A stretch of DNA of 24,138 nt from Gammaproteobacteria bacterium (GTDB lineage Bacteria > Pseudomonadota > Gammaproteobacteria > SURF-13): contig JAYSPZ010000164.1 of the NCBI GenBank assembly GCA_043721815.1, forward strand, positions 1 through 24,138. The letters are read 5' to 3'. Below, piece after piece: positions 677-11,867 of this stretch; within the stretch, counting starts at the first letter, position 1, and each line of letters starts with the position of its first letter. The notes beneath the pieces are model-generated. The model was not told where the DNA came from. It worked only from the letters and a program-made list of their open reading frames with translations, and ran no database searches. A program made the translations under genes and the position numbers.

Positions 677-1246
677 CTATTCCTCGTGAGCATGCCCATC
701 CTTTATCTGCGCCTCTGGTACAGTCGCTGCCGCATTGGGATTGGGTGTCATTGTCATTGTTGGGTTCTCTGGCATATCTGCGCTATGGTTGTGCTTGTCG
801 AGTTTAGGCATGGACATGACCCCGATTCCATAACGGTATACAACTTCACCGCCGCGCCAGGCCGTGTAAGCTAATAGCACGGTACCCGCCAGCACTAAAA
901 TTACCAGGAAAGGTCTGATGGGGCGCCCAATGTGATGCCGCCACACTGACCAGGTGGCCAACAATAAGTAGAAGACAAAGGTAATAATCGCCCAATTTCG
1001 ATGTATCTTCATTGCGGCATGCGACGAGTCGTCATGTTTGACCGTGTTGAAGGCCCAAAATCCGAAGATGACGGTGATAACTGTAATTGCGGCACCCAAC
1101 CACAGTGTCCAGCGCGCGAGAATCGTAAATTCATCACGCCAACCAGACGGTTTCATAAGTACCGCAAGTACGTGAAAGATCGCTGAAACGCTTAATAGGG
1201 CCACCGTGAAATGGACAAAAACCGGATGCCAGTTAGGTAATATCAT
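677..1246 (-). CDS. DUF2231-family multi-TM membrane protein with His/Met-containing C-terminal tail
   Basis: N-terminal WHPVFVHFTVALL, four hydrophobic segments, His in MKIHRNWA, C-terminal GGEVVYRYGIGV (typical DUF2231 pattern). GGAG SD about 10 nt upstream. Confidence 0.8.
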   Translation of the reverse strand: MILPNWHPVFVHFTVALLSVSAIFHVLAVLMKPSGWRDEFTILARWTLWLGAAITVITVIFGFWAFNTVKHDDSSHAAMKIHRNWAIITFVFYLLLATWSVWRHHIGRPIRPFLVILVLAGTVLLAYTAWRGGEVVYRYGIGVMSMPKLDKHNHSADMPENPTMTMTPNPNAAATVPEAQIKDGHAHEE

Positions 1247-1399
1247 GGAACACAGACTCCTGTTGATTTTGATGCATTCAGGTCTGCTCAGTGCTGCGCT
1301 TTCGCACTAATTCTCAGGCGGGTACCCAAGCTGGCAAGTTCGATAGACTTTACCAGCCCGGGTTTTTCACCCGATCACTATCGAAACACTGGCGCAGAT

Positions 1400-1783
1400 T
1401 TACTTGCTGGGTTTAATGCTCACGATGCGATAAGCTTCGCCCAACTTCTCCAACTCAAAGTCCACCTTCATGCCCGTCTGAACACCCTGCAACATCGCGG
1501 CATCCTTAACCGGAAAATCCATACTCATAGCCGACCAGTTCAGGCTCTCGATGGGTCCGTGCGAGAGATTGACCTTAGCTGTTGTAGCGTCTATCGCGTT
1601 TACAGTCCCCTGTCCACGATGGGTGTTTTGCACCTGCTCCTTCATGTCGGACATATCGTGACCCTTCATCTCGCCCATGGGCTGATCCTTCATGCCGGAC
1701 ATGTCATGCATGTCAGCATATAAAGGCGTTATCGATACACCCAGCAATACGACTGTTGCAATGGCACTGTTTATTGTCTTCAT
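1400..1783 (-). CDS. cusF: CusF-like periplasmic Cu(I)/Ag(I)-binding protein with Met-rich N-terminal extension
   Basis: Signal peptide, then HGPIESLNWSAMSMDF, which is the CusF H-x7-W-x2-M-x-M metal site. Strong AGGAGG SD. Confidence 0.88.
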   Translation of the reverse strand: MKTINSAIATVVLLGVSITPLYADMHDMSGMKDQPMGEMKGHDMSDMKEQVQNTHRGQGTVNAIDATTAKVNLSHGPIESLNWSAMSMDFPVKDAAMLQGVQTGMKVDFELEKLGEAYRIVSIKPSK

Positions 1784-1864
1784 GTTGCCTCCTGAGGCTA
1801 ATGTTGGTTAAACCACACAAACGTTTTGTTTCTGAAAAATCACCCGCTACTTATTTCGGCCGTC

Positions 1865-2623
1865 TTAGAACATGACCCGCAAACCGGCAACCACCGCAAA
1901 GTCATTAGTACGCTCACCTTCACTGCGCGCGATGTCCGCAGTGCCGCCAAACTTGTTGGTCCAGGACACGCCGATATACGGCGCAAACTCGCGTTTGATT
2001 TCGTAGCGCAGGCGCAGGCCGAGTTCGATATCATTGATGCCGGAGCCGACACCGAATTCCTCGACTTTTTGCGCGGCGGCATTGACCTCCAGGCTCGGTT
2101 GCAAAATCAGACGTTGCGTGAATAGCAACTCATAACTGGCCTCAAGACGCGCGGAGAGATCACCGTCCTCGCTGATGAACAACGCCGGGGTCACCTCGAA
2201 CCAGTACGGTGCCAGCCCTTCAAAACCAATCACGGCAAAGGCGCGCCCACGATCCTGTTCGCCGTAAAGCCTGTCGTAACGCAAGCCTGCCTGAAAATCC
2301 CAGAAGGGTGCCACCAGGCGACTGTACAGTGCTTGTGCCTCCCATTCGCCGCCGCTATCGCCCGATTGGTTAGCCGCGCCATCTGTTCTTAACCACAGCC
2401 TGTTATAGTCACCGCCGATCCAGGCTTGTGCATCCCATTCCAGTGTGTCCGCACCCTGATTCCTGCGATATTCCAGTTCATCTACCAACACGCTGCTGAA
2501 CACCTGACGATCTTCCACCGGCTCAGGCCAGCCCGGCTCCGCCGCCATACCCGTTAGCGGCGTTGTCAGTGCAAATAAGCCAATGGCATACGCACGCAGG
2601 ATCTTGTTCACAGTGACTTTCAT
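1865..2623 (-). CDS. copB: Copper resistance protein B (outer membrane)
   Basis: EWDAQAWIGGDYNRLWL, LYSRLVAPFWDFQAG, GFEGLAPYWFEV, GLRLRYEIKREFAPYIGV and terminal VAGLRVMF. ATGA overlap with the copA stop. Confidence 0.95.
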   Translation of the reverse strand: MKVTVNKILRAYAIGLFALTTPLTGMAAEPGWPEPVEDRQVFSSVLVDELEYRRNQGADTLEWDAQAWIGGDYNRLWLRTDGAANQSGDSGGEWEAQALYSRLVAPFWDFQAGLRYDRLYGEQDRGRAFAVIGFEGLAPYWFEVTPALFISEDGDLSARLEASYELLFTQRLILQPSLEVNAAAQKVEEFGVGSGINDIELGLRLRYEIKREFAPYIGVSWTNKFGGTADIARSEGERTNDFAVVAGLRVMF

Positions 2624-4587
2624 GCGAATTCTCCCTTATCAGGCTGGGATACGGACACCACACGGAACATGCCCATCTCCATGTGTAGCAAAAGATGGCA
2701 GTGAAACGCCCAGTCGCCTGGCGCATCGGCAGTAATCAACAGCGACAGACGCTCACCCGGTTTCACGTTGATGGTGTGCTTGCGCGGCAAATAGTCACCG
2801 GCACCGTTTTCCAGTTCCATAAACATGCCGTGTAAGTGAATCGGATGTTCCATCATGGTGTCGTTGATTAATATCAAACGCAGTCGCTCGCCATACTGAA
2901 ACGCAATCGGCGCATTCGCCTCCGAATAAGTTTTACCGTCGAACGACCACATGAATCGCTCCATATTGCCGGTGAGATGCAACTCGATTTCACGCCCGGG
3001 CGGACGCTTGTCCTCCATCGGTTTTACGTTGCGCAAATCGGTATACACCAGCACGCGCGTGCCGGTATTTTCCAGACCGGTACCAGGCTCGTGGAGACGA
3101 CTGCGCGGCATCTCGGCGACCATCGAGTTGCCTGGGCCGTGCGTGTCGGGGCCGTGTTTGATTGCGGCGTTCTTGCCGGGCATATCCATACCCTTCATGT
3201 TCATGCCGGACATGTCGTGCTTCATATCACCCATGCCACTCATATCCATACCCTTCATGTTTGACATGTCGTGCTGCATGGTTCCACCGGAGGACTTGCC
3301 CATGTCTTTCATGCTCGTGTCCGGCATGCTGTGTTTCATCCCCCCCATGTCGTCCATCTTCATGCCCGGCATATCGTGCTGCATCGCGCCAGCGGGCACG
3401 CCTTTTTGCATATCACCCATCTTCATGCCCGACATATCGTGCTGCATGCCACCCATACCCATGTCGGACATAGTGCGTAGCGGGGCTGGCCGCCGTTCGG
3501 GAATCGGTGCCGTCAGTCCCTCACGCGCTGTCAGCGTACCGCGTGCATAACCGCTGCGATCCATGCTTTCGGCAAAGATGGTATAGGCACGCTCCTCTTG
3601 GGGTTCGACGATTACGTCATAGGTTTCCGCCACACCGATGCGGAATTCTTCCACGGTTACCGGTTGCACATTCTGGCCATCCGCCTGCACCACGGTCATC
3701 TTGAGACCGGGAATGCGCACATCGAAGTAGGTCATCGAAGAACCATTGATAAAGCGCAGACGCACGCGCTCACCACGCCGGAACAGGCCGCTCCAGTTAG
3801 ACACAGGTGCCAAGCCATTCATCAGATAGGTGTAGGTATAGCCGCTGACATCCGCCAAATCGCTTGGCGACATGCGCATTTGCGCCCACATCATGCGCTC
3901 GGCCATCGTGGTATCCCAGCCGTTCTTTTTTACGTCGCTGAGAAAGTCACCTACCGTGCGTTGCTGGAAGTTGTAGTAATTACTTTGTTTTTTTAACTTG
4001 GCCAGGACGTGATGCGGATTTTCAAACGTCCAATCCGACAACATGACTATGTACTCGCGGTCGTAGGAAAACGGCTCCGGTTCGACAGGATCAATAATCA
4101 TCGCCCCGTAGTGGCCCAACTGCTCCTGCATGCCACTGTGGCTGTGATACCAATAGGTGCCGCTCTGCTTAACCGGGAATTGATAAGTAAATGTCTCACC
4201 CGGTTTGATGCCCGCGAAACTCACACCCGGCACACCATCCATCACCGCTGGCAAAATGAGGCCATGCCAGTGTATAGACGAGTCTTCATCGAGATCGTTA
4301 GTCACGCGCAGGATGGCGTTTTGCCCTTCACGCAAGCGCACCAAAGGCCCGGGGATCGAGCCATTAACCGTGATCGCGTGCGCATCGCGCTCGCCAATGC
4401 GCAGCGCCGTTCTCTGGATGCGCAGGTCAAGTGCTTGCGCATCTTCCCCAACAGACGCGGCCTTGCGCAGCCCAGTGTATTCGGCGGCATACGCAGGTGC
4501 GAGACGCTCAAGGCCCGCCAACAGCCCCATCGCCGCCATGCTTTTTAAGAGATCACGCCTCGTAAACCCGGGGTTGTTACGATTCAT
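2620..4587 (-). CDS. copA: CopA-type multicopper oxidase (Tat-exported)
   Basis: Tat motif FTRRDLLK; four Cu motifs IHWHG, WYHSH, HPIHLHG, HCHLLLHMEMGM. Start moved from TTG 4629 to ATG 4587 because an AGAGGA SD sits 8 nt upstream of it and the Tat signal begins there. Confidence 0.96.
   Translation of the reverse strand: MNRNNPGFTRRDLLKSMAAMGLLAGLERLAPAYAAEYTGLRKAASVGEDAQALDLRIQRTALRIGERDAHAITVNGSIPGPLVRLREGQNAILRVTNDLDEDSSIHWHGLILPAVMDGVPGVSFAGIKPGETFTYQFPVKQSGTYWYHSHSGMQEQLGHYGAMIIDPVEPEPFSYDREYIVMLSDWTFENPHHVLAKLKKQSNYYNFQQRTVGDFLSDVKKNGWDTTMAERMMWAQMRMSPSDLADVSGYTYTYLMNGLAPVSNWSGLFRRGERVRLRFINGSSMTYFDVRIPGLKMTVVQADGQNVQPVTVEEFRIGVAETYDVIVEPQEERAYTIFAESMDRSGYARGTLTAREGLTAPIPERRPAPLRTMSDMGMGGMQHDMSGMKMGDMQKGVPAGAMQHDMPGMKMDDMGGMKHSMPDTSMKDMGKSSGGTMQHDMSNMKGMDMSGMGDMKHDMSGMNMKGMDMPGKNAAIKHGPDTHGPGNSMVAEMPRSRLHEPGTGLENTGTRVLVYTDLRNVKPMEDKRPPGREIELHLTGNMERFMWSFDGKTYSEANAPIAFQYGERLRLILINDTMMEHPIHLHGMFMELENGAGDYLPRKHTINVKPGERLSLLITADAPGDWAFHCHLLLHMEMGMFRVVSVSQPDKGEFA
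3181..3447 (-). repeat. In-frame Met/His-rich repeats (M[QK]HDM[SP]GM) inside copA
   Basis: Exact 21-nt repeat at 3181-3201 and 3241-3261; 31-nt repeat with one mismatch at 3354-3384 and 3417-3447. Confidence 0.9.
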
Positions 4588-4615
4588 AAGTATTTCCTCT
4601 AGTGGATCAACAAAT

Positions 4616-4649
4616 ATGACACCACGCAATACACGGCGCGTGGTGTCAT
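4616..4649. promoter_or_regulatory. 12-bp perfect inverted repeat upstream of copA SD
   Basis: ATGACACCACGC-N10-GCGTGGTGTCAT. On the minus-strand mRNA it is followed by AUUUGUUG and ends about 15 nt before the SD. Function is inferred only. Confidence 0.5.
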
Positions 4650-4900: not shown

Positions 4901-5347
4901 TTACCGCACTGTGTAGTTTTCTCGCATTGTCTTCAGAACCTTCTGCAATTTTTGGAAATTAGACTCCGTGCCGACTTTATCCTTAGCATCGCCACTGGCA
5001 TCCAAGCGTTCGGCTAAAGTTGCTACGAACTGACTATTGGTTTTAATTTTTGCCAGCTTGTCAGCAGGCAAGGCACCGGAACGGGCTGGTATTGCCGCTA
5101 CGAGATCACGGATAGCAAAGGCGTGAAGGTGCACTTCATTGAGCTTGCCGGTTTCGATAACCTTCGCTAGCTCCTCGCTTCGTTTATCTATTGATTGCCA
5201 AATAGCGTCAGTGGTGGTTGGAACCTCTACTTTGGTCTCGGGTTTTTCTGCCGCTTGCGCGGACGGGTTAAATAGCGCGCTGCCAACCAGCAGCGCGCCG
5301 AGTAGAGCGGTCTGGGGTTTAACAATTTTCATCAATGTCTTCTTCAT
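4901..5347 (-). CDS. Secreted alpha-helical protein of unknown function, coupled to the RND pump gene
   Basis: Signal peptide ending AQA-A, amphipathic helical pattern, EVHLHAF motif. ATGA overlap with the RND stop at 5344-5347. Confidence 0.8.
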   Translation of the reverse strand: MKKTLMKIVKPQTALLGALLVGSALFNPSAQAAEKPETKVEVPTTTDAIWQSIDKRSEELAKVIETGKLNEVHLHAFAIRDLVAAIPARSGALPADKLAKIKTNSQFVATLAERLDASGDAKDKVGTESNFQKLQKVLKTMRENYTVR

Positions 5348-8300
5348 GCTGCGGACTCCTCTGGATTAAGTTGCGGATTCGATTGCTGTGGGGCTTTAAC
5401 TTGCTGCGCAGCCAACTTGGCCTCACGACGCTCACGCCATTGCTCCATACGGTTATAGACGGTAGGCACCACAACCATATTCAATAAGGTGGCCGTCACC
5501 AGCCCGCCCAATACGACTTGTGCCAGGGGACGCTCCAGCTCTTTGCCGACCGGAGAACCCCACAGCAGTGGAATCAAACCTAGTGCGGCAGTGGCCGCCG
5601 TCATCAGCACCGGCACCAGACGATCCAGCGTGCCTTGCACCACGACTTCATGCAGCGGCTTGCCCTCGGCGCGCAACTGGCTGTAGTGGCTGACGAGGAT
5701 GATGCCGTTGCGCGTGGCGATGCCGAACAGGGTGATGAAGCCGATGATGGCGGCCACGCTCATGTTCGCACCCGCCAGATAAAGGCTGACGATGCCACCG
5801 ATCATCGCAAGCGGCAGGTTGAACATTACCAGCAGCGCTTCGCGGAAAGTGCCGAAGGCTTTATATAGCAATAGCAGCGCACCAAATATGGCCAGCAGGC
5901 CGAAGCTGAGCAGGGTGCGGTTCGCTGCCTGCTGGGACTGGAACTGGCCGCCATATTCAAAGTAGTAGCCAGGCGGCAGTTTGATCTCCTTGTTGATTGC
6001 CACCTGCGTATCGGCGATGACACTGCCGAGGTCGCGGCCCTGTACGTTGAAACCAACCACCAGCAGGCGCTGCACGCTCTCGCGACTGATCGCGTAAGGT
6101 TGATCCTCTACATTCACATCGGCGACTTGGCGCAAGGGAATCTTACCGTTGCCCTTCTCCAATACGGATGCATCCACCAGAATGTTGCGGATATCCTCTA
6201 CACTGTTGCGTTGCGAACTCTGTAGACGCACGTTGAGGTCGAAGGTGCGGTGCCCTTCCAGAATGCTGGAGACGTTTTCGCCGTTGAGGAACAGCTGGAT
6301 GTCCTGGGCCACGTCGCCCACGTTGATACCGTAGCGGGCGGCCTTTTCGCGGTCGATCTTGATGCTCACCTGGGGCACGTTGATCTGCTGCTCGACGTTG
6401 ATATCCACCGCGCCGGGTACCTTCTGGAGTATGCCACGCACCTGTTGGCCAAGTTGATATAGCTGCGGTAGTTTTTCGCCGAAAATTTTGATGGCAACCT
6501 GAGCACGCACCCCGGATTCCACCTCGTCGAAACGGTGCGCGATAAACTGGCCGATGTTGAACACGGCACCCGGTATATTGCCAAGATCCTTGCGGATGTT
6601 TTCCAATAGAACATTTGCGGATATATCGCGATTTTTTTCAAAATCCAGGCGCACGTCGAACTCACTGAAATTGGGCGGCTGTGCATCTTCGTCGAGTTCA
6701 CTGCGTCCGGCACGTTGCGAAATGGAGACAACTTGCGGATATTTCAACATGTCCCGGCGCACCAAGTCGCCGAGACGCATGGATTCCTCCAGCGAAGTGC
6801 CGGGCAAAGTCACCATGGAGACGATGAAGTTACCCTCCTGAAATTCGGGCAGGAACGAACGACCAAACAAGGGCAACAAGGACAGCGTCAGTGCCAAAGC
6901 TAGCACGGACATCCCTACCACCCACCAGAAGCGGCGCAGCGCCACGTTCAGCAGGCGCGAAAATTGGCGCTTCAGTCCAATCACGAAACGCGTTTCCTTT
7001 TCATGCCCTTCACCGCTGCCGTGGCCAGCAGTGTCGGCGGCGAGTTCCCGGCGACCCAGGGCGCGCAGCTTCACGTCCCGATCCAGGCGTTTTTCGTCCT
7101 TGCGCACTAGCAGGAAATAACAGAGCGCTGGCACCGTGGTCACCGCCACGACCAGCGATACGGTCACGGAGGCGATATAGGCGATGCCCAATGGGCTAAA
7201 AATGCGTCCAGCCAGATCTTCCAGGAAAAAGATCGGCAGAAAAATCAGGATAATGATGAACGTGGCATACACGACCGAATTGAGAATTTCCTGCACCGCG
7301 TCGAACACCACCTCCATCGGTGGCAGCGGACGCTCGGCGTTGCGGTTCAGGCGCAGCCGGCGCACCACGTTCTCTACCGTGATGATGCCGTTGTCCACCA
7401 CCTCGCCAATGGCGATGGCGAGGCCTCCGAGTGTCATGGCGTTGATGCCGATGTCGAAGGCGTACATCACTAAAATGCCGCCCACGAACGACACCGGCAT
7501 GGACAAAAAGGTGATGAAAGAGGCGCGCCAGTTCGCCAGGAATATGAACAACACGGCGATGACGATCAGCGCGCCTTCCAAGAGCGCAACATTCAGGTTG
7601 TGCACTGCTGTCTCGATGAAGTTGGCTTGGCGGAATACCTGAGCTTCCATCTTCACACCGGGCGGCAACTTCTGCTTAATCTCGGCCAGCGTCTTCTCCA
7701 CCTTCGCGGTGGTGGTGACGGTATCGGCCCCGTAGGCCTTGGACACCGTGCCGATCACCGCGTCTTTCAAGCCATAGGCACCATCACCGCGCTTGATCTC
7801 GCCACCGAAGACCACCTCGGCTACGTTGGCGATGGTGATGGGCACCTGGTCACGCACGGTTATCAGCGTGGTTTTGATGTCATCCAGCGAAGTGATCCGG
7901 CCTATGCCGCTGACGATGAATTCCTGTCCGGGTTGCTGCAGGAAGGCACCCGGAACATTGACATTGGCGTTGCGCAAAGCGTCGCGTACCTGTTCGATGC
8001 TGATGTTGTAGGCCAGCATGCGTTGCGGATCGAGGCGCACTTGGTATTGCTTGACCTCGCCGCCGATGGAGACCACAGAGGCAATGCCGCCCAGCGACAA
8101 AATGCGCGGGCGGATGTCCCAGTCGGACAAGGTGCGTAGTTCTTCCGGTGATACGCTATCGCTGGTCAGCGCGTATTTGACCAGCCAGCCCACTGCCGAA
8201 GTAACGGGTAGCATCACCGGGATGCTACCCGGTGGCAAACGGCCTTGCACATTCTGGATACGCTCGTTTACAAGCTGACGATCTAGATAGACATCCGTGC

Positions 8301-8598
8301 CCGAGTCAAACACTACCACGATGGTGGACAAGCCGACGGAGGTCTTGGAGCGAACGGCAGTCACGCCCGGCGTGCCATTGATTGCGCTTTCCAGCGGATA
8401 GGTGATGAGCGACTCCACGTCTTGCGGGGCCATGCCCGGTGCTTCGGTCTGCACCACGACCTGGGGCGGGGCAAATTCGGGGAATACATCGAGCGCCATG
8501 CGTTGCAGGGCAAAGCCACCCGCAATCATGAGCACTAAAGTGAACGCCAACACGATGAGACGGTTGTGCAGCGACCAGGCGATGAGCGTGTTAAACAT
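5344..8598 (-). CDS. CusA/CzcA-family heavy-metal RND efflux pump
   Basis: 1084 aa. DVFPEFAPPQVVVQTEAPG, TM4 GLAIAIGEVVDNGIITVEN, GRSFLPEFQEG, TM10/11 GIATRNGIILV...DRLVPVLMTA. TAATG overlap with the adaptor stop. Confidence 0.96.
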   Translation of the reverse strand: MFNTLIAWSLHNRLIVLAFTLVLMIAGGFALQRMALDVFPEFAPPQVVVQTEAPGMAPQDVESLITYPLESAINGTPGVTAVRSKTSVGLSTIVVVFDSGTDVYLDRQLVNERIQNVQGRLPPGSIPVMLPVTSAVGWLVKYALTSDSVSPEELRTLSDWDIRPRILSLGGIASVVSIGGEVKQYQVRLDPQRMLAYNISIEQVRDALRNANVNVPGAFLQQPGQEFIVSGIGRITSLDDIKTTLITVRDQVPITIANVAEVVFGGEIKRGDGAYGLKDAVIGTVSKAYGADTVTTTAKVEKTLAEIKQKLPPGVKMEAQVFRQANFIETAVHNLNVALLEGALIVIAVLFIFLANWRASFITFLSMPVSFVGGILVMYAFDIGINAMTLGGLAIAIGEVVDNGIITVENVVRRLRLNRNAERPLPPMEVVFDAVQEILNSVVYATFIIILIFLPIFFLEDLAGRIFSPLGIAYIASVTVSLVVAVTTVPALCYFLLVRKDEKRLDRDVKLRALGRRELAADTAGHGSGEGHEKETRFVIGLKRQFSRLLNVALRRFWWVVGMSVLALALTLSLLPLFGRSFLPEFQEGNFIVSMVTLPGTSLEESMRLGDLVRRDMLKYPQVVSISQRAGRSELDEDAQPPNFSEFDVRLDFEKNRDISANVLLENIRKDLGNIPGAVFNIGQFIAHRFDEVESGVRAQVAIKIFGEKLPQLYQLGQQVRGILQKVPGAVDINVEQQINVPQVSIKIDREKAARYGINVGDVAQDIQLFLNGENVSSILEGHRTFDLNVRLQSSQRNSVEDIRNILVDASVLEKGNGKIPLRQVADVNVEDQPYAISRESVQRLLVVGFNVQGRDLGSVIADTQVAINKEIKLPPGYYFEYGGQFQSQQAANRTLLSFGLLAIFGALLLLYKAFGTFREALLVMFNLPLAMIGGIVSLYLAGANMSVAAIIGFITLFGIATRNGIILVSHYSQLRAEGKPLHEVVVQGTLDRLVPVLMTAATAALGLIPLLWGSPVGKELERPLAQVVLGGLVTATLLNMVVVPTVYNRMEQWRERREAKLAAQQVKAPQQSNPQLNPEESAA

Positions 8599-9824
8599 TA
8601 GTGCTGATCTCCGGCTTCGGTGTGCTTGTTCCCATCGGTATGCTCTTCCGCCGCAAGCGGTTTTTTAGCCTGCGGGTCTGTCGAGACGGGTTTTTCCTGT
8701 TTCGTTTGCTTACTGCCAAAAGTCTTGATGCGCGCCGTGAAGTTGCCTATCCCATTAGTAAGCTGGCCTATCCAGCTAACTGGTTTTTCATCTTTCATCT
8801 GGCTATCAGGAGCGGTCGGCTTTTCCTCTTTTGCCGACTCGCCACTGCCGGTCAGCCACATCGTGTAAACCTGCCGGTTGCCTTGCGTCACGACTTCATC
8901 GCCAGGCACCAGGCCCTCGGTGATTTCACTGAATGCACCATCGCGCACGCCAACACTCACTTCCATGCGATTAAAGCTGTTGCCTTCCGCCACAAACACG
9001 AACTTCTCACCATTGGCTTCAACAATAGCGCTGTTGGGCACCGCCAGCGCCGCGTCGTTACGCTTCAGGATCACGCTGGCGCGCGCAAACATATTGGGCT
9101 TGAGCAGGCCCTGTTCATTCGCCAGTTCTATCCAGAGATTTACGGTGCGGCTAAGTGGATCAAGGTTGGTATCGATCAACGTGACCTTGCCGGTAAATAT
9201 CTCATTGGGATAACTGAGCACATGAACACGGGCCTCCTGCTCGACCTTGATCTTGCCCAGGTCTTCCTCAAATACCTTGGCTATGACAATGACTTGCGTG
9301 CGGTCACTGATATGAAAAAGTGAAGAATTGGGCTCCACCGCCTGGCCGACACTCACATTAAGCGCATCGATAAGGCCGCTCATGGGCGCAGTAATATTGA
9401 CGCTGGGCGGTGGATCGCCACTCAGGCGCGATTCCACCTTGGCGAGATTCTGCCCGGCCTTGACCGTATCCCCCAGCTTGGCGTACAAGGCCTTCACCTG
9501 GCCGCTAATGCGTAGGCCGACCTCAGCCTGGCGGTTGGGTAGCAACTGCACCTGACCGTTGAGGTTCAACTCCTGATTGATAGTGCGTACTTCAGCGGGC
9601 GCGGTTTGCAGGGCAATAGCCTGCTTCTGCTGATCGGTGAGTTGCACCGGGCCGCGTGCGCCACCACCGCCCACCTCGATTTCCTCGCCATGGCCAACGG
9701 CCTCGGGCAGCATGAATGGCAGGGTTAGTAGCAATAAAACGATTCCTGTAATAAATCGAAGAAATGCACTGTGGCTCACTCTGTTTCGAAATATGTAGCT
9801 ATTCAATGCGGTTATTCCTTTCAT
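8598..9824 (-). CDS. RND periplasmic adaptor (MFP), apparently lacking the alpha-helical hairpin
   Basis: N-terminal TM anchor; lipoyl halves RISGQVKALYAKLGDTVKAGQNLA and ITAPMSGLIDALNVSVGQAV; LDPLSRTV, LKPNMFA, VPNSAIV, GLVPGDEVVTQG. Confidence 0.92.
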   Translation of the reverse strand: MKGITALNSYIFRNRVSHSAFLRFITGIVLLLLTLPFMLPEAVGHGEEIEVGGGGARGPVQLTDQQKQAIALQTAPAEVRTINQELNLNGQVQLLPNRQAEVGLRISGQVKALYAKLGDTVKAGQNLAKVESRLSGDPPPSVNITAPMSGLIDALNVSVGQAVEPNSSLFHISDRTQVIVIAKVFEEDLGKIKVEQEARVHVLSYPNEIFTGKVTLIDTNLDPLSRTVNLWIELANEQGLLKPNMFARASVILKRNDAALAVPNSAIVEANGEKFVFVAEGNSFNRMEVSVGVRDGAFSEITEGLVPGDEVVTQGNRQVYTMWLTGSGESAKEEKPTAPDSQMKDEKPVSWIGQLTNGIGNFTARIKTFGSKQTKQEKPVSTDPQAKKPLAAEEHTDGNKHTEAGDQH

Positions 9825-11259
9825 AGGGGCGTGTGGCTGGCACGGTCATAGACATCGACTGATCTGGTAGCGTGGGAACCTGCTGGCCCCGTGTTACATC
9901 TAATTGCGCGTCCGAAGTAAAGGAATTCGACGGGCCTGGTGCCAGTCCGTCTCCGAAACTGCTCCCAACTCCAAAGGCCAGGCCCGTCAATGCTTGCAAA
10001 TACTGGTCAAGGACATTGAGATAAGCGATATGTGCATCGGTGTGCTGGCGCTGGGCCTGCACCACGGCAAAGATCGGGATTTGCCCAAGGCCATAGGCAG
10101 CCTGCGAATTACTGACGTTACTGTCGGCTAAAGGTAGTATGGTGTGTTCGTAGTCATGCAGGGCCACCTTCAGGCGTTCGCTCTCGGCGTAGGCGCTGGC
10201 GACCTGGTTGCTGATGCTGGCCGCAAGCGCTTCACTCCGCGCCGTAGCCTGGCTGCCCGCAACGATGGCTTCGGCGATGCGGCCCTGATTCTTATTGCGC
10301 AAGGGTAGGGGGATAGACAGGGTCACACCCAATGCACGCTCGGTGTCTTGCGGCGGTGCGCCGGTGATGGACAGGCGACTTTGCTCCACGCCTACGCCGA
10401 CCGTCCAGTCTTCCCAGGTCTGGGAACGCGCCAGTGCCTGAGCCGCACGGGCGCGTTCCAGGTTCAGGGCCTCGACCCGTAATTCGGGACGTTGGCTTAA
10501 GGCTTGTTGTTGCAACTTCTCCACACCGGGCAAGACCTGTGCCCTGGCCAACGAGTCATCCAAGGTCAATGCCTGCCCAGCGACCCTCCCCAGCAACTGG
10601 TTCAGCAGGCCCTGTTGTGTTGCCTGCTGGTTTTGCAGCAAGGTACGCTCCTGCTCCAAACGCGCCAGCTCTATGCGCGCCGTGAATACATCCAGTTCCG
10701 ACACCTCTGCCACCTTGAAGCGGTTGCGGGTGACCTTGACCAGCTTTTTATCCACCTTTATCAGACTGTCACGCTCCGCAATCTGGCGATTCAGGACGAT
10801 GATCCGGTAATACGTGGAGGCCACATTACCCGTCAGCCTGCGCTCGGCGATATTGATTTCAGCCATTGCCAAGTCAACATCCACCCGCGCCACGTCTTTC
10901 TCGCGGGCCAGCCACCCGGCTACGGGGAACTGCTGGGTGAAGCCCGCACTGACGGCGTATTCGCCGTTATTACCGAACAGAAAGTCGCTGCGCGTGGACA
11001 ATTCGAGGCGCGGATTAGCAGGCAATCCAGCCTGCGCCAGACGGGCATGTGCGGCATCCACGCTATAACGGGCTGCTTGCAAATCCTTGTTATTTTGCAG
11101 GGCCAGCGTAATGACTTCTTCCAGCCCGAAGCTTGTCGCGTTGCTCTGAGACTCGATCCCTTTTGCCATAAGGGCGGCGCTCACGGCGCTCAGCCAGCCG
11201 CCAGCGACAATAACGAGAACCAGACGCGACAAAGCGCGGTTGAGCATGAGTAATGACAT
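9799..11259 (-). CDS. TolC/CzcC-family outer-membrane efflux factor
   Basis: EVITLALQNNKDL, ALSQRPEL, LSIPLPLRNKNQGRI, two-repeat OEP pattern. Start chosen at ATG 11259 (GGGA upstream, signal peptide follows) rather than 11301. Confidence 0.93.
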   Translation of the reverse strand: MSLLMLNRALSRLVLVIVAGGWLSAVSAALMAKGIESQSNATSFGLEEVITLALQNNKDLQAARYSVDAAHARLAQAGLPANPRLELSTRSDFLFGNNGEYAVSAGFTQQFPVAGWLAREKDVARVDVDLAMAEINIAERRLTGNVASTYYRIIVLNRQIAERDSLIKVDKKLVKVTRNRFKVAEVSELDVFTARIELARLEQERTLLQNQQATQQGLLNQLLGRVAGQALTLDDSLARAQVLPGVEKLQQQALSQRPELRVEALNLERARAAQALARSQTWEDWTVGVGVEQSRLSITGAPPQDTERALGVTLSIPLPLRNKNQGRIAEAIVAGSQATARSEALAASISNQVASAYAESERLKVALHDYEHTILPLADSNVSNSQAAYGLGQIPIFAVVQAQRQHTDAHIAYLNVLDQYLQALTGLAFGVGSSFGDGLAPGPSNSFTSDAQLDVTRGQQVPTLPDQSMSMTVPATRPYERNNRIE

Positions 11260-11265
11260 GAAATA

Positions 11266-11385
11266 TATTCCCAAAATTAAACACCGTGCTGAATAACACA
11301 CGAGCCGGGAATACGGTTTGAGGTGAAACGGAGAAGCTTAAGGATGCCCCAAAACCGTAATACCCAGCCCGAAAAGGGCAGGGTA
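11266..11385 (-). promoter_or_regulatory. Structured intergenic leader with potential SD-masking hairpin
   Basis: 7-bp inverted repeat at 11307-11313 / 11266-11272 that includes the putative GGGA SD; competing 8-bp inverted repeat at 11352-11359 / 11312-11319; hairpin at 11361-11385. Confidence 0.5.
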
Positions 11386-11393
11386 GAAGGACA

Positions 11394-11867
11394 TCAGAGC
11401 GGTGGGGCGTGAGGCCAGAGGGAGTTGGCGATTAAAAAATGCCTGGATTTGCCGCCGGGAGGGTCAATGCCGAAATGGCGGACAACCAGTGCCGGCAAGA
11501 AAAGAACAGCAGAAATAACGGCAATAAACGGTACTAAAACATAGGCCAGATCATACAATGCCTGAAGATTGCTGGCCTGAGAAAATGCCGAGAGATTTTG
11601 CAGTAAGGTACAGCAAGCGTCCCCCGATTTTTTATCGCCCCCGCCATGTTGGACGTGCTCACCGGCTTGGTTGCTAACCGGGGTGGAACCTGCTCCAAAG
11701 TGTTGCTCCGGGGACTCACCGAACTGCATTACACTTATCGAGCAAACCGCCAGCGAAAATATCCAACTAGCCAATACCACCCAAGCAATACCGCGCAAAC
11801 TCACACCACCGAACCGCCGGAAAATGGAATTATGACGCATCGGTTGGTTTGGAACGGCTGGATACAC
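11394..11867 (-). CDS. DUF2946/CzcI-like upstream ORF; candidate metal-sensing ribosome arrest peptide
   Basis: N-terminal hydrophobic segment, His-containing linker, DACC, second hydrophobic stretch, C-terminal SLWPHAPPL*. First gene of the metal-efflux operon. Start uncertain (GTG 11867 or ATG 11840). Confidence 0.7.
   Translation of the reverse strand: MYPAVPNQPMRHNSIFRRFGGVSLRGIAWVVLASWIFSLAVCSISVMQFGESPEQHFGAGSTPVSNQAGEHVQHGGGDKKSGDACCTLLQNLSAFSQASNLQALYDLAYVLVPFIAVISAVLFLPALVVRHFGIDPPGGKSRHFLIANSLWPHAPPL

What the first reader, a model, noticed from the sequence alone, without database searches (positions are those of the whole stretch)
9340..9510. Adaptor with no alpha-helical hairpin in a TolC-coupled metal pump
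The two lipoyl half-motifs are joined by only about 12 residues (ESRLSGDPPPSV, approx. 9399-9434), where CusB/CzcB/AcrA insert a coiled-coil hairpin of tens of residues that contacts the OMF. The reading frame is intact and a full-length OMF is co-encoded. The hairpin-less precedent I know is Borrelia BesA, a drug-efflux adaptor in a spirochaete. A proteobacterial metal pump built this way implies a different assembly mode.
Basis: partly seen in the sequence, partly recalled or inferred. Interest (0 to 1): 0.68.

Follow-up and report, generated by a model that had tools for sequence, protein, structure and literature searches.

The report
Hairpin-less adaptor of a metal efflux pump
The adaptor protein of this copper-cluster efflux pump really lacks the helical arm that normally reaches the outer-membrane channel, but this design is conserved and common in proteobacterial metal pumps, so it is an under-described known kind rather than a one-off.

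Summary
Observation confirmed. The adaptor (window 8598-9824, minus strand, 408 aa) joins its two lipoyl half-motifs by ESRLSGDPPPSV (9399-9434). There is no alpha-hairpin.

- **Structure:** BesA aligns across the junction without a gap. ZneB, MacA and CusB align only in two pieces that skip their hairpins. An AlphaFold2 model is all-beta there (pLDDT >90), and BesA is its best PDB match.
- **Not an error or private deletion:** 120 homologs (61-82% identical, about 325 aa) have the same junction length and an invariant SRLxG(D/N)PPP. The G(D/N)PPP loop recurs in many clusters only 30-45% identical.
- **Not unique:** 42 of 58 single-adaptor cluster representatives near this protein lack a hairpin.
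  - Legionella plasmids carry orthologs (54-58%) in the same cassette. The BesA paper already mentioned Legionella.
  - Xanthomonas copper-resistance plasmids carry a distant hairpin-less relative.
  - Equivalogs of IhpB are hairpin-less too. IhpB is the adaptor of the published Bradyrhizobium IhpABC metal exporter.
  - This scan has noted such adaptors on other DNA (46 notes).
- **Partners:** the OMF is canonical in length, with altered tip and gate residues. The RND lacks CusA's methionine triad. The same genome also holds a true CusBA.

Best reading: the OMF docks directly on the RND, clamped by a lipoyl ring. This is inferred, not shown. New member of a known kind; moderate interest.

The parts
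8598..9824 (-). Periplasmic adaptor (MFP), 408 aa, P0001. A database gene call starts 30 codons later, at 9734.
   Evidence: TIGR01730 scores 148 bits against a cut-off of 94.9. Pfam HlyD_D23 and HlyD_3 also match. BesA is the top Foldseek hit.
9693..9824 (-). Signal peptide region (aa 1-44). The mature protein is predicted to start at the invariant H45-G46.
   Evidence: Homologs end the signal with AFA followed by HG(G/E)(E/Q)IEV. The AF2 model has a helix at 18-33. Cleavage is inferred, not shown.
9429..9527 (-). First lipoyl half-motif (about aa 100-132).
   Evidence: Pfam Biotin_lipoyl_2 matches 105-129. AF2 strands at 99-103, 108-113 and 126-132.
9399..9434 (-). Junction ESRLSGDPPPSV (aa 131-142), which stands where the alpha-hairpin would be.
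   Evidence: S132, R133, L134, G136 and P138-P140 are invariant in the 46-sequence alignment, and the junction length is identical in 120 homologs. G(D/N)PPP recurs in distant clusters. It is a loop in the AF2 model.
9300..9404 (-). Second lipoyl half-motif (about aa 141-175).
   Evidence: Pfam HlyD_3 matches 144-243. AF2 strands at 141-145, 150-155 and 168-173.
8601..8849 (-). Private Lys/Glu/Pro-rich C-terminal tail of the adaptor (aa 326-408).
   Evidence: Homologs end near residue 325-335. pLDDT is below 50.
9799..11301 (-). TolC-family outer membrane factor, P0002. A database gene call starts at 11259.
   Evidence: Pfam OEP E 5e-44. The AF2 model has 66-70-residue tunnel helices. Foldseek TM-scores (normalised by target length) are 0.59-0.71 to OprM, TolC, CusC, SilC and other solved OMFs.
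5344..8598 (-). Heavy-metal-type RND permease, P0003.
   Evidence: TIGR00914 scores 861 bits against a cut-off of 701. Best PDB matches are ZneA and CusA. The CusA Met triad is replaced by S/F/E.
4901..5347 (-). Secreted 148-aa helical accessory protein, P0273, overlapping the RND stop codon.
   Evidence: It is conserved after the RND gene in a Legionella plasmid (45% identity) and in L016 (64%). An unnamed gene of similar size sits there in L015. No Pfam or NCBIfam family matches.
11394..11867 (-). 157-aa membrane protein P0274, with a Cys-Cys motif, heading the module.
   Evidence: 39% identical to the gene upstream of the OMF in L015. No family match.
677..4629 (-). Copper-handling context: multicopper oxidase (2620-4629), CopB (1865-2623), CusF (1400-1783), DUF2231 (677-1246).
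   Evidence: Pfam matches. The same DUF2231 plus multicopper oxidase pair lies next to the Legionella cassette.

Best explanation
This is the adaptor of a functional three-part heavy-metal efflux pump: OMF, adaptor and HME-type RND, plus two small conserved accessory proteins. It belongs to a large, conserved lineage of hairpin-less adaptors with BesA-like architecture.

The adaptor keeps the membrane-proximal, beta-barrel and lipoyl domains that grip the RND pump. Instead of a coiled-coil arm, a rigid and strictly conserved proline loop, SRLxG(D/N)PPP, caps the lipoyl domain.

The OMF tunnel is of normal length. The most likely assembly therefore has the tips of the OMF sitting directly on the docking domain of the RND trimer. 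A ring of six adaptor lipoyl domains would clamp and seal that joint through their proline loops. The pump would be several nanometres shorter than AcrAB-TolC.

The OMF family has lost TolC's R367-type gate residue and the D374 acidic ring. It may therefore need less prising open, as was proposed for BesC.

The substrate is probably a metal handled by the neighbouring copper genes. It is not bound through a CusA-type methionine triad.

Shown here: the architecture, its conservation, the gene linkage and the residue changes. Inferred: the docking geometry, the gating argument and the substrate.
For: - **Absence of the hairpin:**
- **Conservation:** the junction length is identical and the motif invariant in 120 homologs. 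G(D/N)PPP is kept in clusters only 30-45% identical.
- **Operon linkage:** OMF-adaptor-RND is kept in a Legionella plasmid, a Xanthomonas plasmid and metagenome contigs, with overlapping or closely abutting genes. The IhpB-type loci also carry an OMF-like frame upstream.
- **OMF:** canonical fold and normal tunnel helices of 66-70 residues. In the OMF family TolC G147 is an invariant Ala, L148 an invariant Glu, R367 is Ile/Val and D374 is Gln/Arg/Leu.
- **Envelope is not the cause:** the same genome also encodes adaptors with a CusB-like and a long helical insert, so a narrow envelope does not explain the absence.
- **Copper context:**
- **Different metal chemistry:** the RND lacks the Met triad, while a true CusA with the triad sits on another contig.
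- **Earlier models:** direct RND-OMF contact is what reviews say a hairpin-less system requires (PMC4446572). A weaker OMF gate was proposed for BesC (PMC4338810).
Against: - No structure or interaction data exist for any hairpin-less tripartite pump. Only monomers were modelled here.
- The membrane-proximal part of the adaptor model is of low confidence (pLDDT 47-76 for residues 251-310).
- The OMF tip changes are not shared by the OMFs next to IhpB-type and Xanthomonas hairpin-less adaptors. There is thus no general tip signature.
- The OMF-TolC residue equivalences rest on an alignment at about 16% identity, anchored on an invariant Tyr and Gly.
- The substrate is unknown.
Confidence: 0.6

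Rival explanations
1. A bridging element is supplied in trans. The conserved secreted 148-aa helical protein encoded right after the RND gene (4901-5347) would take the place of the missing hairpin between the adaptor ring and the OMF, making a four-component pump.
For: The gene overlaps the RND stop codon. It is conserved in the same position in a Legionella plasmid and in L016, and a gene of similar size sits there in L015. It has a signal peptide. Language-model features resemble four-helix-bundle proteins, a shape about as long as a hairpin.
Against: No interaction evidence exists. The IhpB-type and Xanthomonas hairpin-less systems have no obvious equivalent: Xanthomonas has an unrelated-looking 92-aa gene there. 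Its His-rich EVHLHAF segment and its resemblance to small metal-binding proteins fit a metallochaperone equally well.
Confidence: 0.1
2. The adaptor does not engage the OMF. The RND and adaptor would work as a two-part periplasmic or inner-membrane unit, and the OMF would act separately or be recruited only transiently.
For: The element known to hold the OMF in AcrAB-TolC-type pumps is missing. Reviews state that tip-to-tip models cannot accommodate such adaptors.
Against: The OMF gene is kept immediately upstream in every context examined, overlapping or closely abutting the adaptor gene. NCBIfam lists IhpA as a subunit of the IhpABC exporter. The strict invariance of the apical proline loop argues for a contact surface.
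Confidence: 0.12
3. The missing hairpin is a private deletion, an assembly error or a decaying gene.
For: The window comes from a fragmented metagenome-assembled genome (190 contigs, 76% complete). The adaptor also carries a private C-terminal tail.
Against: All 120 closest homologs, from many independent assemblies, have exactly the same junction. Finished Legionella plasmids carry orthologs. The frame is open and coupled to both neighbouring genes.
Confidence: 0.01

Closest known systems
BesA, adaptor of the Borrelia burgdorferi BesABC pump (PDB 4KKS/4KKT/4KKU; Greene et al. 2013, PMC3807786)
   Same: Both have the membrane-proximal, beta-barrel and lipoyl domains with a short loop in place of the hairpin. 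The sequence alignment crosses the junction without a gap. BesA is the best structural match (Foldseek E 6.5e-19, TM 0.62 normalised by BesA length). The partner OMF has weakened gate residues in both cases.
   Different: Identity is about 26%. BesA is lipid-anchored and serves a drug-type pump in a spirochaete. This protein has a cleavable-looking signal with no Cys, an N-terminal His, a conserved G(D/N)PPP loop and a heavy-metal-type RND partner.
IhpB of the Bradyrhizobium japonicum IhpABC divalent metal exporter (NCBIfam NF045680; Zhang and O'Brian 2023, seen only as a title cited in PMC10760861)
   Same: It is a proteobacterial metal RND adaptor in an OMF-adaptor-RND operon. Equivalogs found here lack the hairpin: anchor distance 18 residues against 21 here and about 96 in hairpin-bearing relatives.
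   Different: This protein scores only 105.6 bits against a cut-off of 450, so it is not an equivalog. The junction is of a different type (ESNxSL, no proline loop). It falls in a separate clade of the tree. I could not read the paper, so I do not know whether the missing hairpin was remarked on.
Adaptors of the TolC-adaptor-RND cassettes on Legionella plasmids (for example NZ_CP114577.1, WP_269565399.1)
   Same: They are orthologs: 54-58% identity over the whole core, the same junction (SRLVGNPPPSV), the same cassette including the 150-aa downstream protein, and neighbouring DUF2231, multicopper oxidase and copper ATPase genes.
   Different: They are annotated only generically, and I found no experimental work on them. 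The BesA paper mentions Legionella sequences in one sentence. They lack the private C-terminal tail.
CusB and CusCFBA of Escherichia coli
   Same: Both are adaptors of metal RND pumps in a copper context. CusB already has a shortened, folded-back helical domain (anchor distance 64 residues). CusF is present in the window cluster.
   Different: The CusB model NF007303 scores 43 bits against a cut-off of 390. No helical domain is present at all. The RND partner lacks the M573/M623/M672 triad. The genome holds a separate true CusBA.

Membership tests
RND periplasmic adaptor / membrane fusion protein (TIGR01730, Pfam HlyD_D23) | Whole-protein score above the curated cut-off | tested here: met
   TIGR01730 scores 148.3 bits against 94.9. 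HlyD_D23 scores 135.6 against 30.
RND periplasmic adaptor / membrane fusion protein (TIGR01730, Pfam HlyD_D23) | Split lipoyl domain, beta-barrel and membrane-proximal domain | tested here: met
   The AF2 model has the lipoyl and barrel domains at pLDDT above 90. The membrane-proximal part is less confident, but it aligns to the profiles up to position 312-321 and to ZneB and CusB.
RND periplasmic adaptor / membrane fusion protein (TIGR01730, Pfam HlyD_D23) | Alpha-helical hairpin between the lipoyl halves (typical, not universal) | tested here: not met
   A ten-residue loop joins the halves. The profiles match in two stretches that skip the hairpin positions.
RND periplasmic adaptor / membrane fusion protein (TIGR01730, Pfam HlyD_D23) | Encoded next to an RND permease | tested here: met
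   The stop codon overlaps the start of a TIGR00914 RND gene.
BesA-type hairpin-less adaptors | Short loop instead of the hairpin, with a gap-free alignment to BesA across the junction | tested here: met
   phmmer aligns query 82-283 to BesA 37-237 in one stretch. BesA is the top Foldseek hit.
BesA-type hairpin-less adaptors | Partner OMF with weakened periplasmic gates | tested here: inconclusive
   In the OMF family the equivalent of TolC R367 is Ile/Val and D374 is Gln/Arg/Leu. D371 is Ala in the window but Asp/Glu in 32 of 48 relatives. The Y362 and D153 equivalents are invariant. The alignment is at low identity.
BesA-type hairpin-less adaptors | N-terminal lipid anchor and a drug-type (HAE) RND partner, as in BesABC | tested here: not met
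   There is no Cys in or after the signal peptide. The partner is a CusA/CzcA-family RND.
CusB (NF007303) | Score above the cut-off of 390 bits, and a partner CusA with the Met triad | tested here: not met
   The score is 43 bits. The RND has S/F/E at CusA positions 573/623/672.
CzcB/NccB (TIGR00999) | Score above the cut-off of 319.3 bits | tested here: not met
   The score is 123.1 bits, and only profile positions 92-267 match.
IhpB (NF045680) | Equivalog score above 450 bits | tested here: not met
   The score is 105.6 bits, though in one stretch that spans the junction. True equivalogs score 461-545 bits and form a separate clade.

The most novel reading that the evidence does not exclude
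The G(D/N)PPP clade would be a distinct five-gene pump type. In it, the secreted 148-aa helical protein encoded after the RND gene is a structural subunit that replaces the adaptor hairpin at the OMF interface. Alternatively, the invariant N-terminal His of the mature adaptor forms a copper site that hands Cu(II) to a methionine-free HME pump. Either would be a new assembly or metal-delivery mechanism for tripartite pumps.
Probability: 0.1. Interest if true: 0.75.

Novelty: new member of a known kind. Interest (0 to 1): 0.4.

Why it matters
How a tripartite pump recruits and opens its outer-membrane channel without the adaptor hairpin has been open since the BesA structure in 2013. Reviews still present BesA as the only example and as the main challenge to tip-to-tip assembly models (PMC4446572).

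This work shows that the design is not a spirochaete oddity. It is a large, conserved lineage of proteobacterial metal-pump adaptors. Members sit on Legionella and Xanthomonas plasmids and in IhpABC, which a published title names as a Bradyrhizobium metal exporter.

That gives culturable systems, and a sharply conserved apical loop, with which to test the assembly question. For this particular window the result is a well-supported annotation, not a new kind of system.

Tried and rejected
- **Private deletion or assembly error:** rejected, because 120 homologs and finished plasmids share the junction.
- **A longer OMF tunnel compensating for the missing hairpin:** rejected. The model has ordinary helices of 66-70 residues and a TolC-like fold.
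- **A narrow envelope in this organism:** rejected. The same genome encodes adaptors with CusB-like and long hairpins.
- **A Cus-type Cu(I) pump:** not supported. The Met triad is absent, and a true CusBA lies elsewhere in the genome.
- **A general OMF-tip signature co-varying with hairpin loss:** not found. IhpB-type and Xanthomonas partner OMFs keep the tip-1 glycine.
- **A single origin of hairpin loss:** unresolved. The tree needs at least 4 changes, but well-supported branches force only 1, and the sample is biased towards relatives of the query.
- **Compositional island:** none. GC is 0.48-0.58 across the window.
- **Literature:**
  - The IhpABC paper (PMC10841971) is not held.
  - Searches for hairpin-less adaptors beyond BesA found nothing further.
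  - A search for the Legionella hel locus was swamped by 'HeLa'.
- **OMF against PDB sequences:** phmmer gave no hit. Only a family profile reached SilC, at E 9e-5.

Full report
**1. The observation**

The minus-strand ORF 8598-9824 encodes a 408-aa protein. The stretch lies between the two lipoyl half-motifs (GDTVKAGQNLAKVES and NITAPMSGLIDA).

- **Family:** TIGR01730 (RND adaptor) scores 148 bits against a cut-off of 94.9. It matches in two stretches that skip the hairpin positions, as does Pfam HlyD_D23.
- **Solved structures:** BesA aligns in one gap-free stretch (query 82-283 to BesA 37-237). ZneB, MacA and CusB align in two pieces that leave out about 80 of their own residues.
- **Model:** An AlphaFold2 model built on 46 homologs has pLDDT above 90 for residues 91-250. 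It shows strands 126-132 and 141-145 joined by a loop, with no helix. Foldseek ranks BesA chains first (E 6.5e-19, TM 0.62 normalised by BesA length). ZneB, MacA and CusB follow with large rmsd.

**2. Not a private deletion**

The 120 best homologs are 61-82% identical, mostly about 325 aa, and come from many assemblies. The named ones are Sulfuricella, Gallionellaceae and Burkholderiales genomes.

- All 120 have exactly the same number of residues between query positions 100 and 175.
- S132, R133, L134, G136, P138 and P139 are invariant in all 120. P140 is Pro in 119 of 120, and position 137 is Asp or Asn.

An exhaustive search of 1.84 billion cluster representatives found 61,671 relatives at E up to 0.001 and 299 at E up to 1e-30. 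I measured the distance between two anchor residues (Q125 and A146 of the query) in the best 150.

- 42 of 58 single-adaptor representatives have a distance of 18-22 residues, so no hairpin. Each representative stands for a different cluster at 50% identity.
- The rest have about 96 residues, so a hairpin of about 75 residues.
- Three representatives are fused double hairpin-less adaptors.

This sample is biased towards relatives of the query. The G(D/N)PPP loop recurs in most of the 21-residue type, even at 30-45% identity. The junction therefore defines a broad, old clade.

**3. Already-named relatives**

- **Legionella plasmids** carry orthologs (54-58% identity over the whole core, junction SRLVGNPPPSV). 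They sit in a TolC-adaptor-RND-150-aa-protein cassette next to DUF2231, multicopper oxidase and copper ATPase genes. The 150-aa protein is 45% identical to the window's 4901-5347 product. The BesA paper says hairpin-less sequences are 'evident rarely in proteobacteria (e.g. Legionella)' (PMC3807786).
- **Xanthomonas copper-resistance plasmids** carry a 32%-identical hairpin-less adaptor in a TolC-adaptor-CusA/CzcA operon.
- **IhpB:** NCBIfam NF045680 (IhpB, divalent metal exporter adaptor) matched the query in a single stretch across the junction. I found four equivalogs above its cut-off among 401 genomes of the phylum. All four have an anchor distance of 18, with the junction ESNQSL(S/T)xYE. 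A paper title names IhpABC as a divalent metal ion exporter of Bradyrhizobium japonicum (Zhang and O'Brian 2023, cited in PMC10760861). I could not read that paper.
- **Relatives of this genome:** about ten of 41 related genomes hold a match that spans the junction with no room for a hairpin. Only one holds a true ortholog, at 76% identity.
- **This scan** had 46 earlier notes on hairpin-less adaptors in other genomes. These are leads, not evidence.

**4. The partners**

*OMF (9799-11301).* It is a TolC-family protein (Pfam OEP) and is distant from solved ones. phmmer finds none. A family profile reaches SilC only at E 9e-5.

- Its AlphaFold2 model (mean pLDDT 77) has the canonical fold, with tunnel helices 127-196 and 339-404. 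These are of ordinary length.
- TM-scores (normalised by target length) are 0.59-0.71 to TolC, OprM, CusC, SilC and other solved OMFs. The tunnel is therefore not lengthened to make up for the missing hairpin.
- In an alignment with E. coli TolC, the OMF family has an invariant Ala and Glu at TolC G147 and L148. It has Ile/Val at R367 and Gln/Arg/Leu at D374.
- At D371 it has Asp/Glu in 32 of 48 members, but Ala in the window.
- The Y362 and D153 equivalents are invariant.
- This recalls the weakened gates reported for BesC. However, the OMFs next to IhpB-type and Xanthomonas adaptors keep the tip glycine.

*RND (5344-8598).* It belongs to the CusA/CzcA family (TIGR00914, 861 bits). Its best solved relatives are ZneA and CusA.

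- It has S/F/E at CusA M573/M623/M672 and lacks most of the transmembrane methionine pairs. Charged residues R83, E567, D617, R669 and E716 are kept.
- The same genome has a true CusBA on another contig. That RND is 62% identical to E. coli CusA and has the full Met triad, and its adaptor has a CusB-like helical insert.
- A third adaptor in the genome has a long hairpin.
- The absence of the hairpin is therefore a property of this pump type, not of the cell envelope. The substrate chemistry differs from Cus.

**5. Context**

Homologous contigs place the same module beside CusRS plus CusF, cupredoxins and copper P-type ATPases. The window has a multicopper oxidase, CopB, CusF and DUF2231 downstream.

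- **After the RND:** the secreted helical protein is also 64% identical in L016, and an unnamed gene of similar size sits there in L015.
- **Before the OMF:** the membrane protein is 39% identical in L015.

**6. Mechanism**

*Shown:* an intact, conserved adaptor without a hairpin; a strictly conserved apical proline loop; a normal-length OMF with altered gate positions; tight gene linkage.

*Inferred:* the OMF docks directly on the RND docking domain, and a ring of lipoyl domains clamps the joint through the proline loops. This gives a pump shorter than AcrAB-TolC. It is the 'direct contact' geometry that reviews say a hairpin-less system requires (PMC4446572).

*Rivals:*
- a bridging subunit supplied in trans by the 148-aa protein;
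- no stable OMF engagement;
- artefact, which is refuted.

**7. Novelty**

The kind (a hairpin-less adaptor) is known from BesA, and proteobacterial examples were mentioned in 2013. IhpABC is named as an exporter in a published title. What is new here:
- the size and conservation of the proteobacterial metal-pump lineage;
- its G(D/N)PPP signature;
- the accompanying accessory genes;
- the OMF residue changes.

None of these turned up in the papers I could search. For this window the fair class is a new member of a known kind, with moderate interest.

Noticed in passing
window 9690-9824 (adaptor aa 1-46): In 44 of the 45 aligned homologs the signal peptide ends in a small-x-Ala site (mostly AFA) followed by HG(G/E)(E/Q)IEV-GGGARGPVQL. 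H45 and G46 are invariant. The mature adaptor would therefore begin with His, which could form an N-terminal copper site. This is untested.
   Followed up: partly
window 8601-8849 (adaptor aa 326-408): This adaptor alone carries an 83-aa Lys/Glu/Pro/Thr-rich tail with three EKP-like repeats and terminal His residues. It fills what is a gap of 2-3 nt between the adaptor and RND genes in homologs (L015, L016). It is disordered in the model.
   Followed up: partly
window 4901-5347 (-): A secreted 148-aa helical protein with no family assignment overlaps the RND stop codon. It is conserved in that position in a Legionella plasmid and in L016. Language-model features resemble cytochrome b562, PsbQ, DUF6746 and SmbP four-helix proteins.
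   Followed up: partly
window 11394-11867 (-): A 157-aa membrane protein with a Cys-Cys motif and a C-terminal WP(H/N)APP heads the module. It is 39% identical to the gene upstream of the OMF in L015.
   Followed up: partly
L021 (G000 contig C6) and L020 (G000 contig C52): The same genome holds a canonical CusBA. Its RND is 62% identical to E. coli CusA with the full Met triad, and its adaptor has a CusB-like helical insert. It also holds a drug-type RND whose adaptor has a long hairpin.
   Followed up: yes
proteins P0124, P0125, P0170 and many representatives of 700-770 aa: Many close representatives are fused double adaptors, with two complete adaptor units in one chain. Three of them are made of two hairpin-less units.
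   Followed up: no
G000 as a whole; relatives G001-G019: Only one of 19 same-family genomes searched has an ortholog of this adaptor (76% identity). The best matches are in other families and on Legionella plasmids. This points to patchy, probably horizontal, distribution, yet the window shows no GC anomaly.
   Followed up: partly
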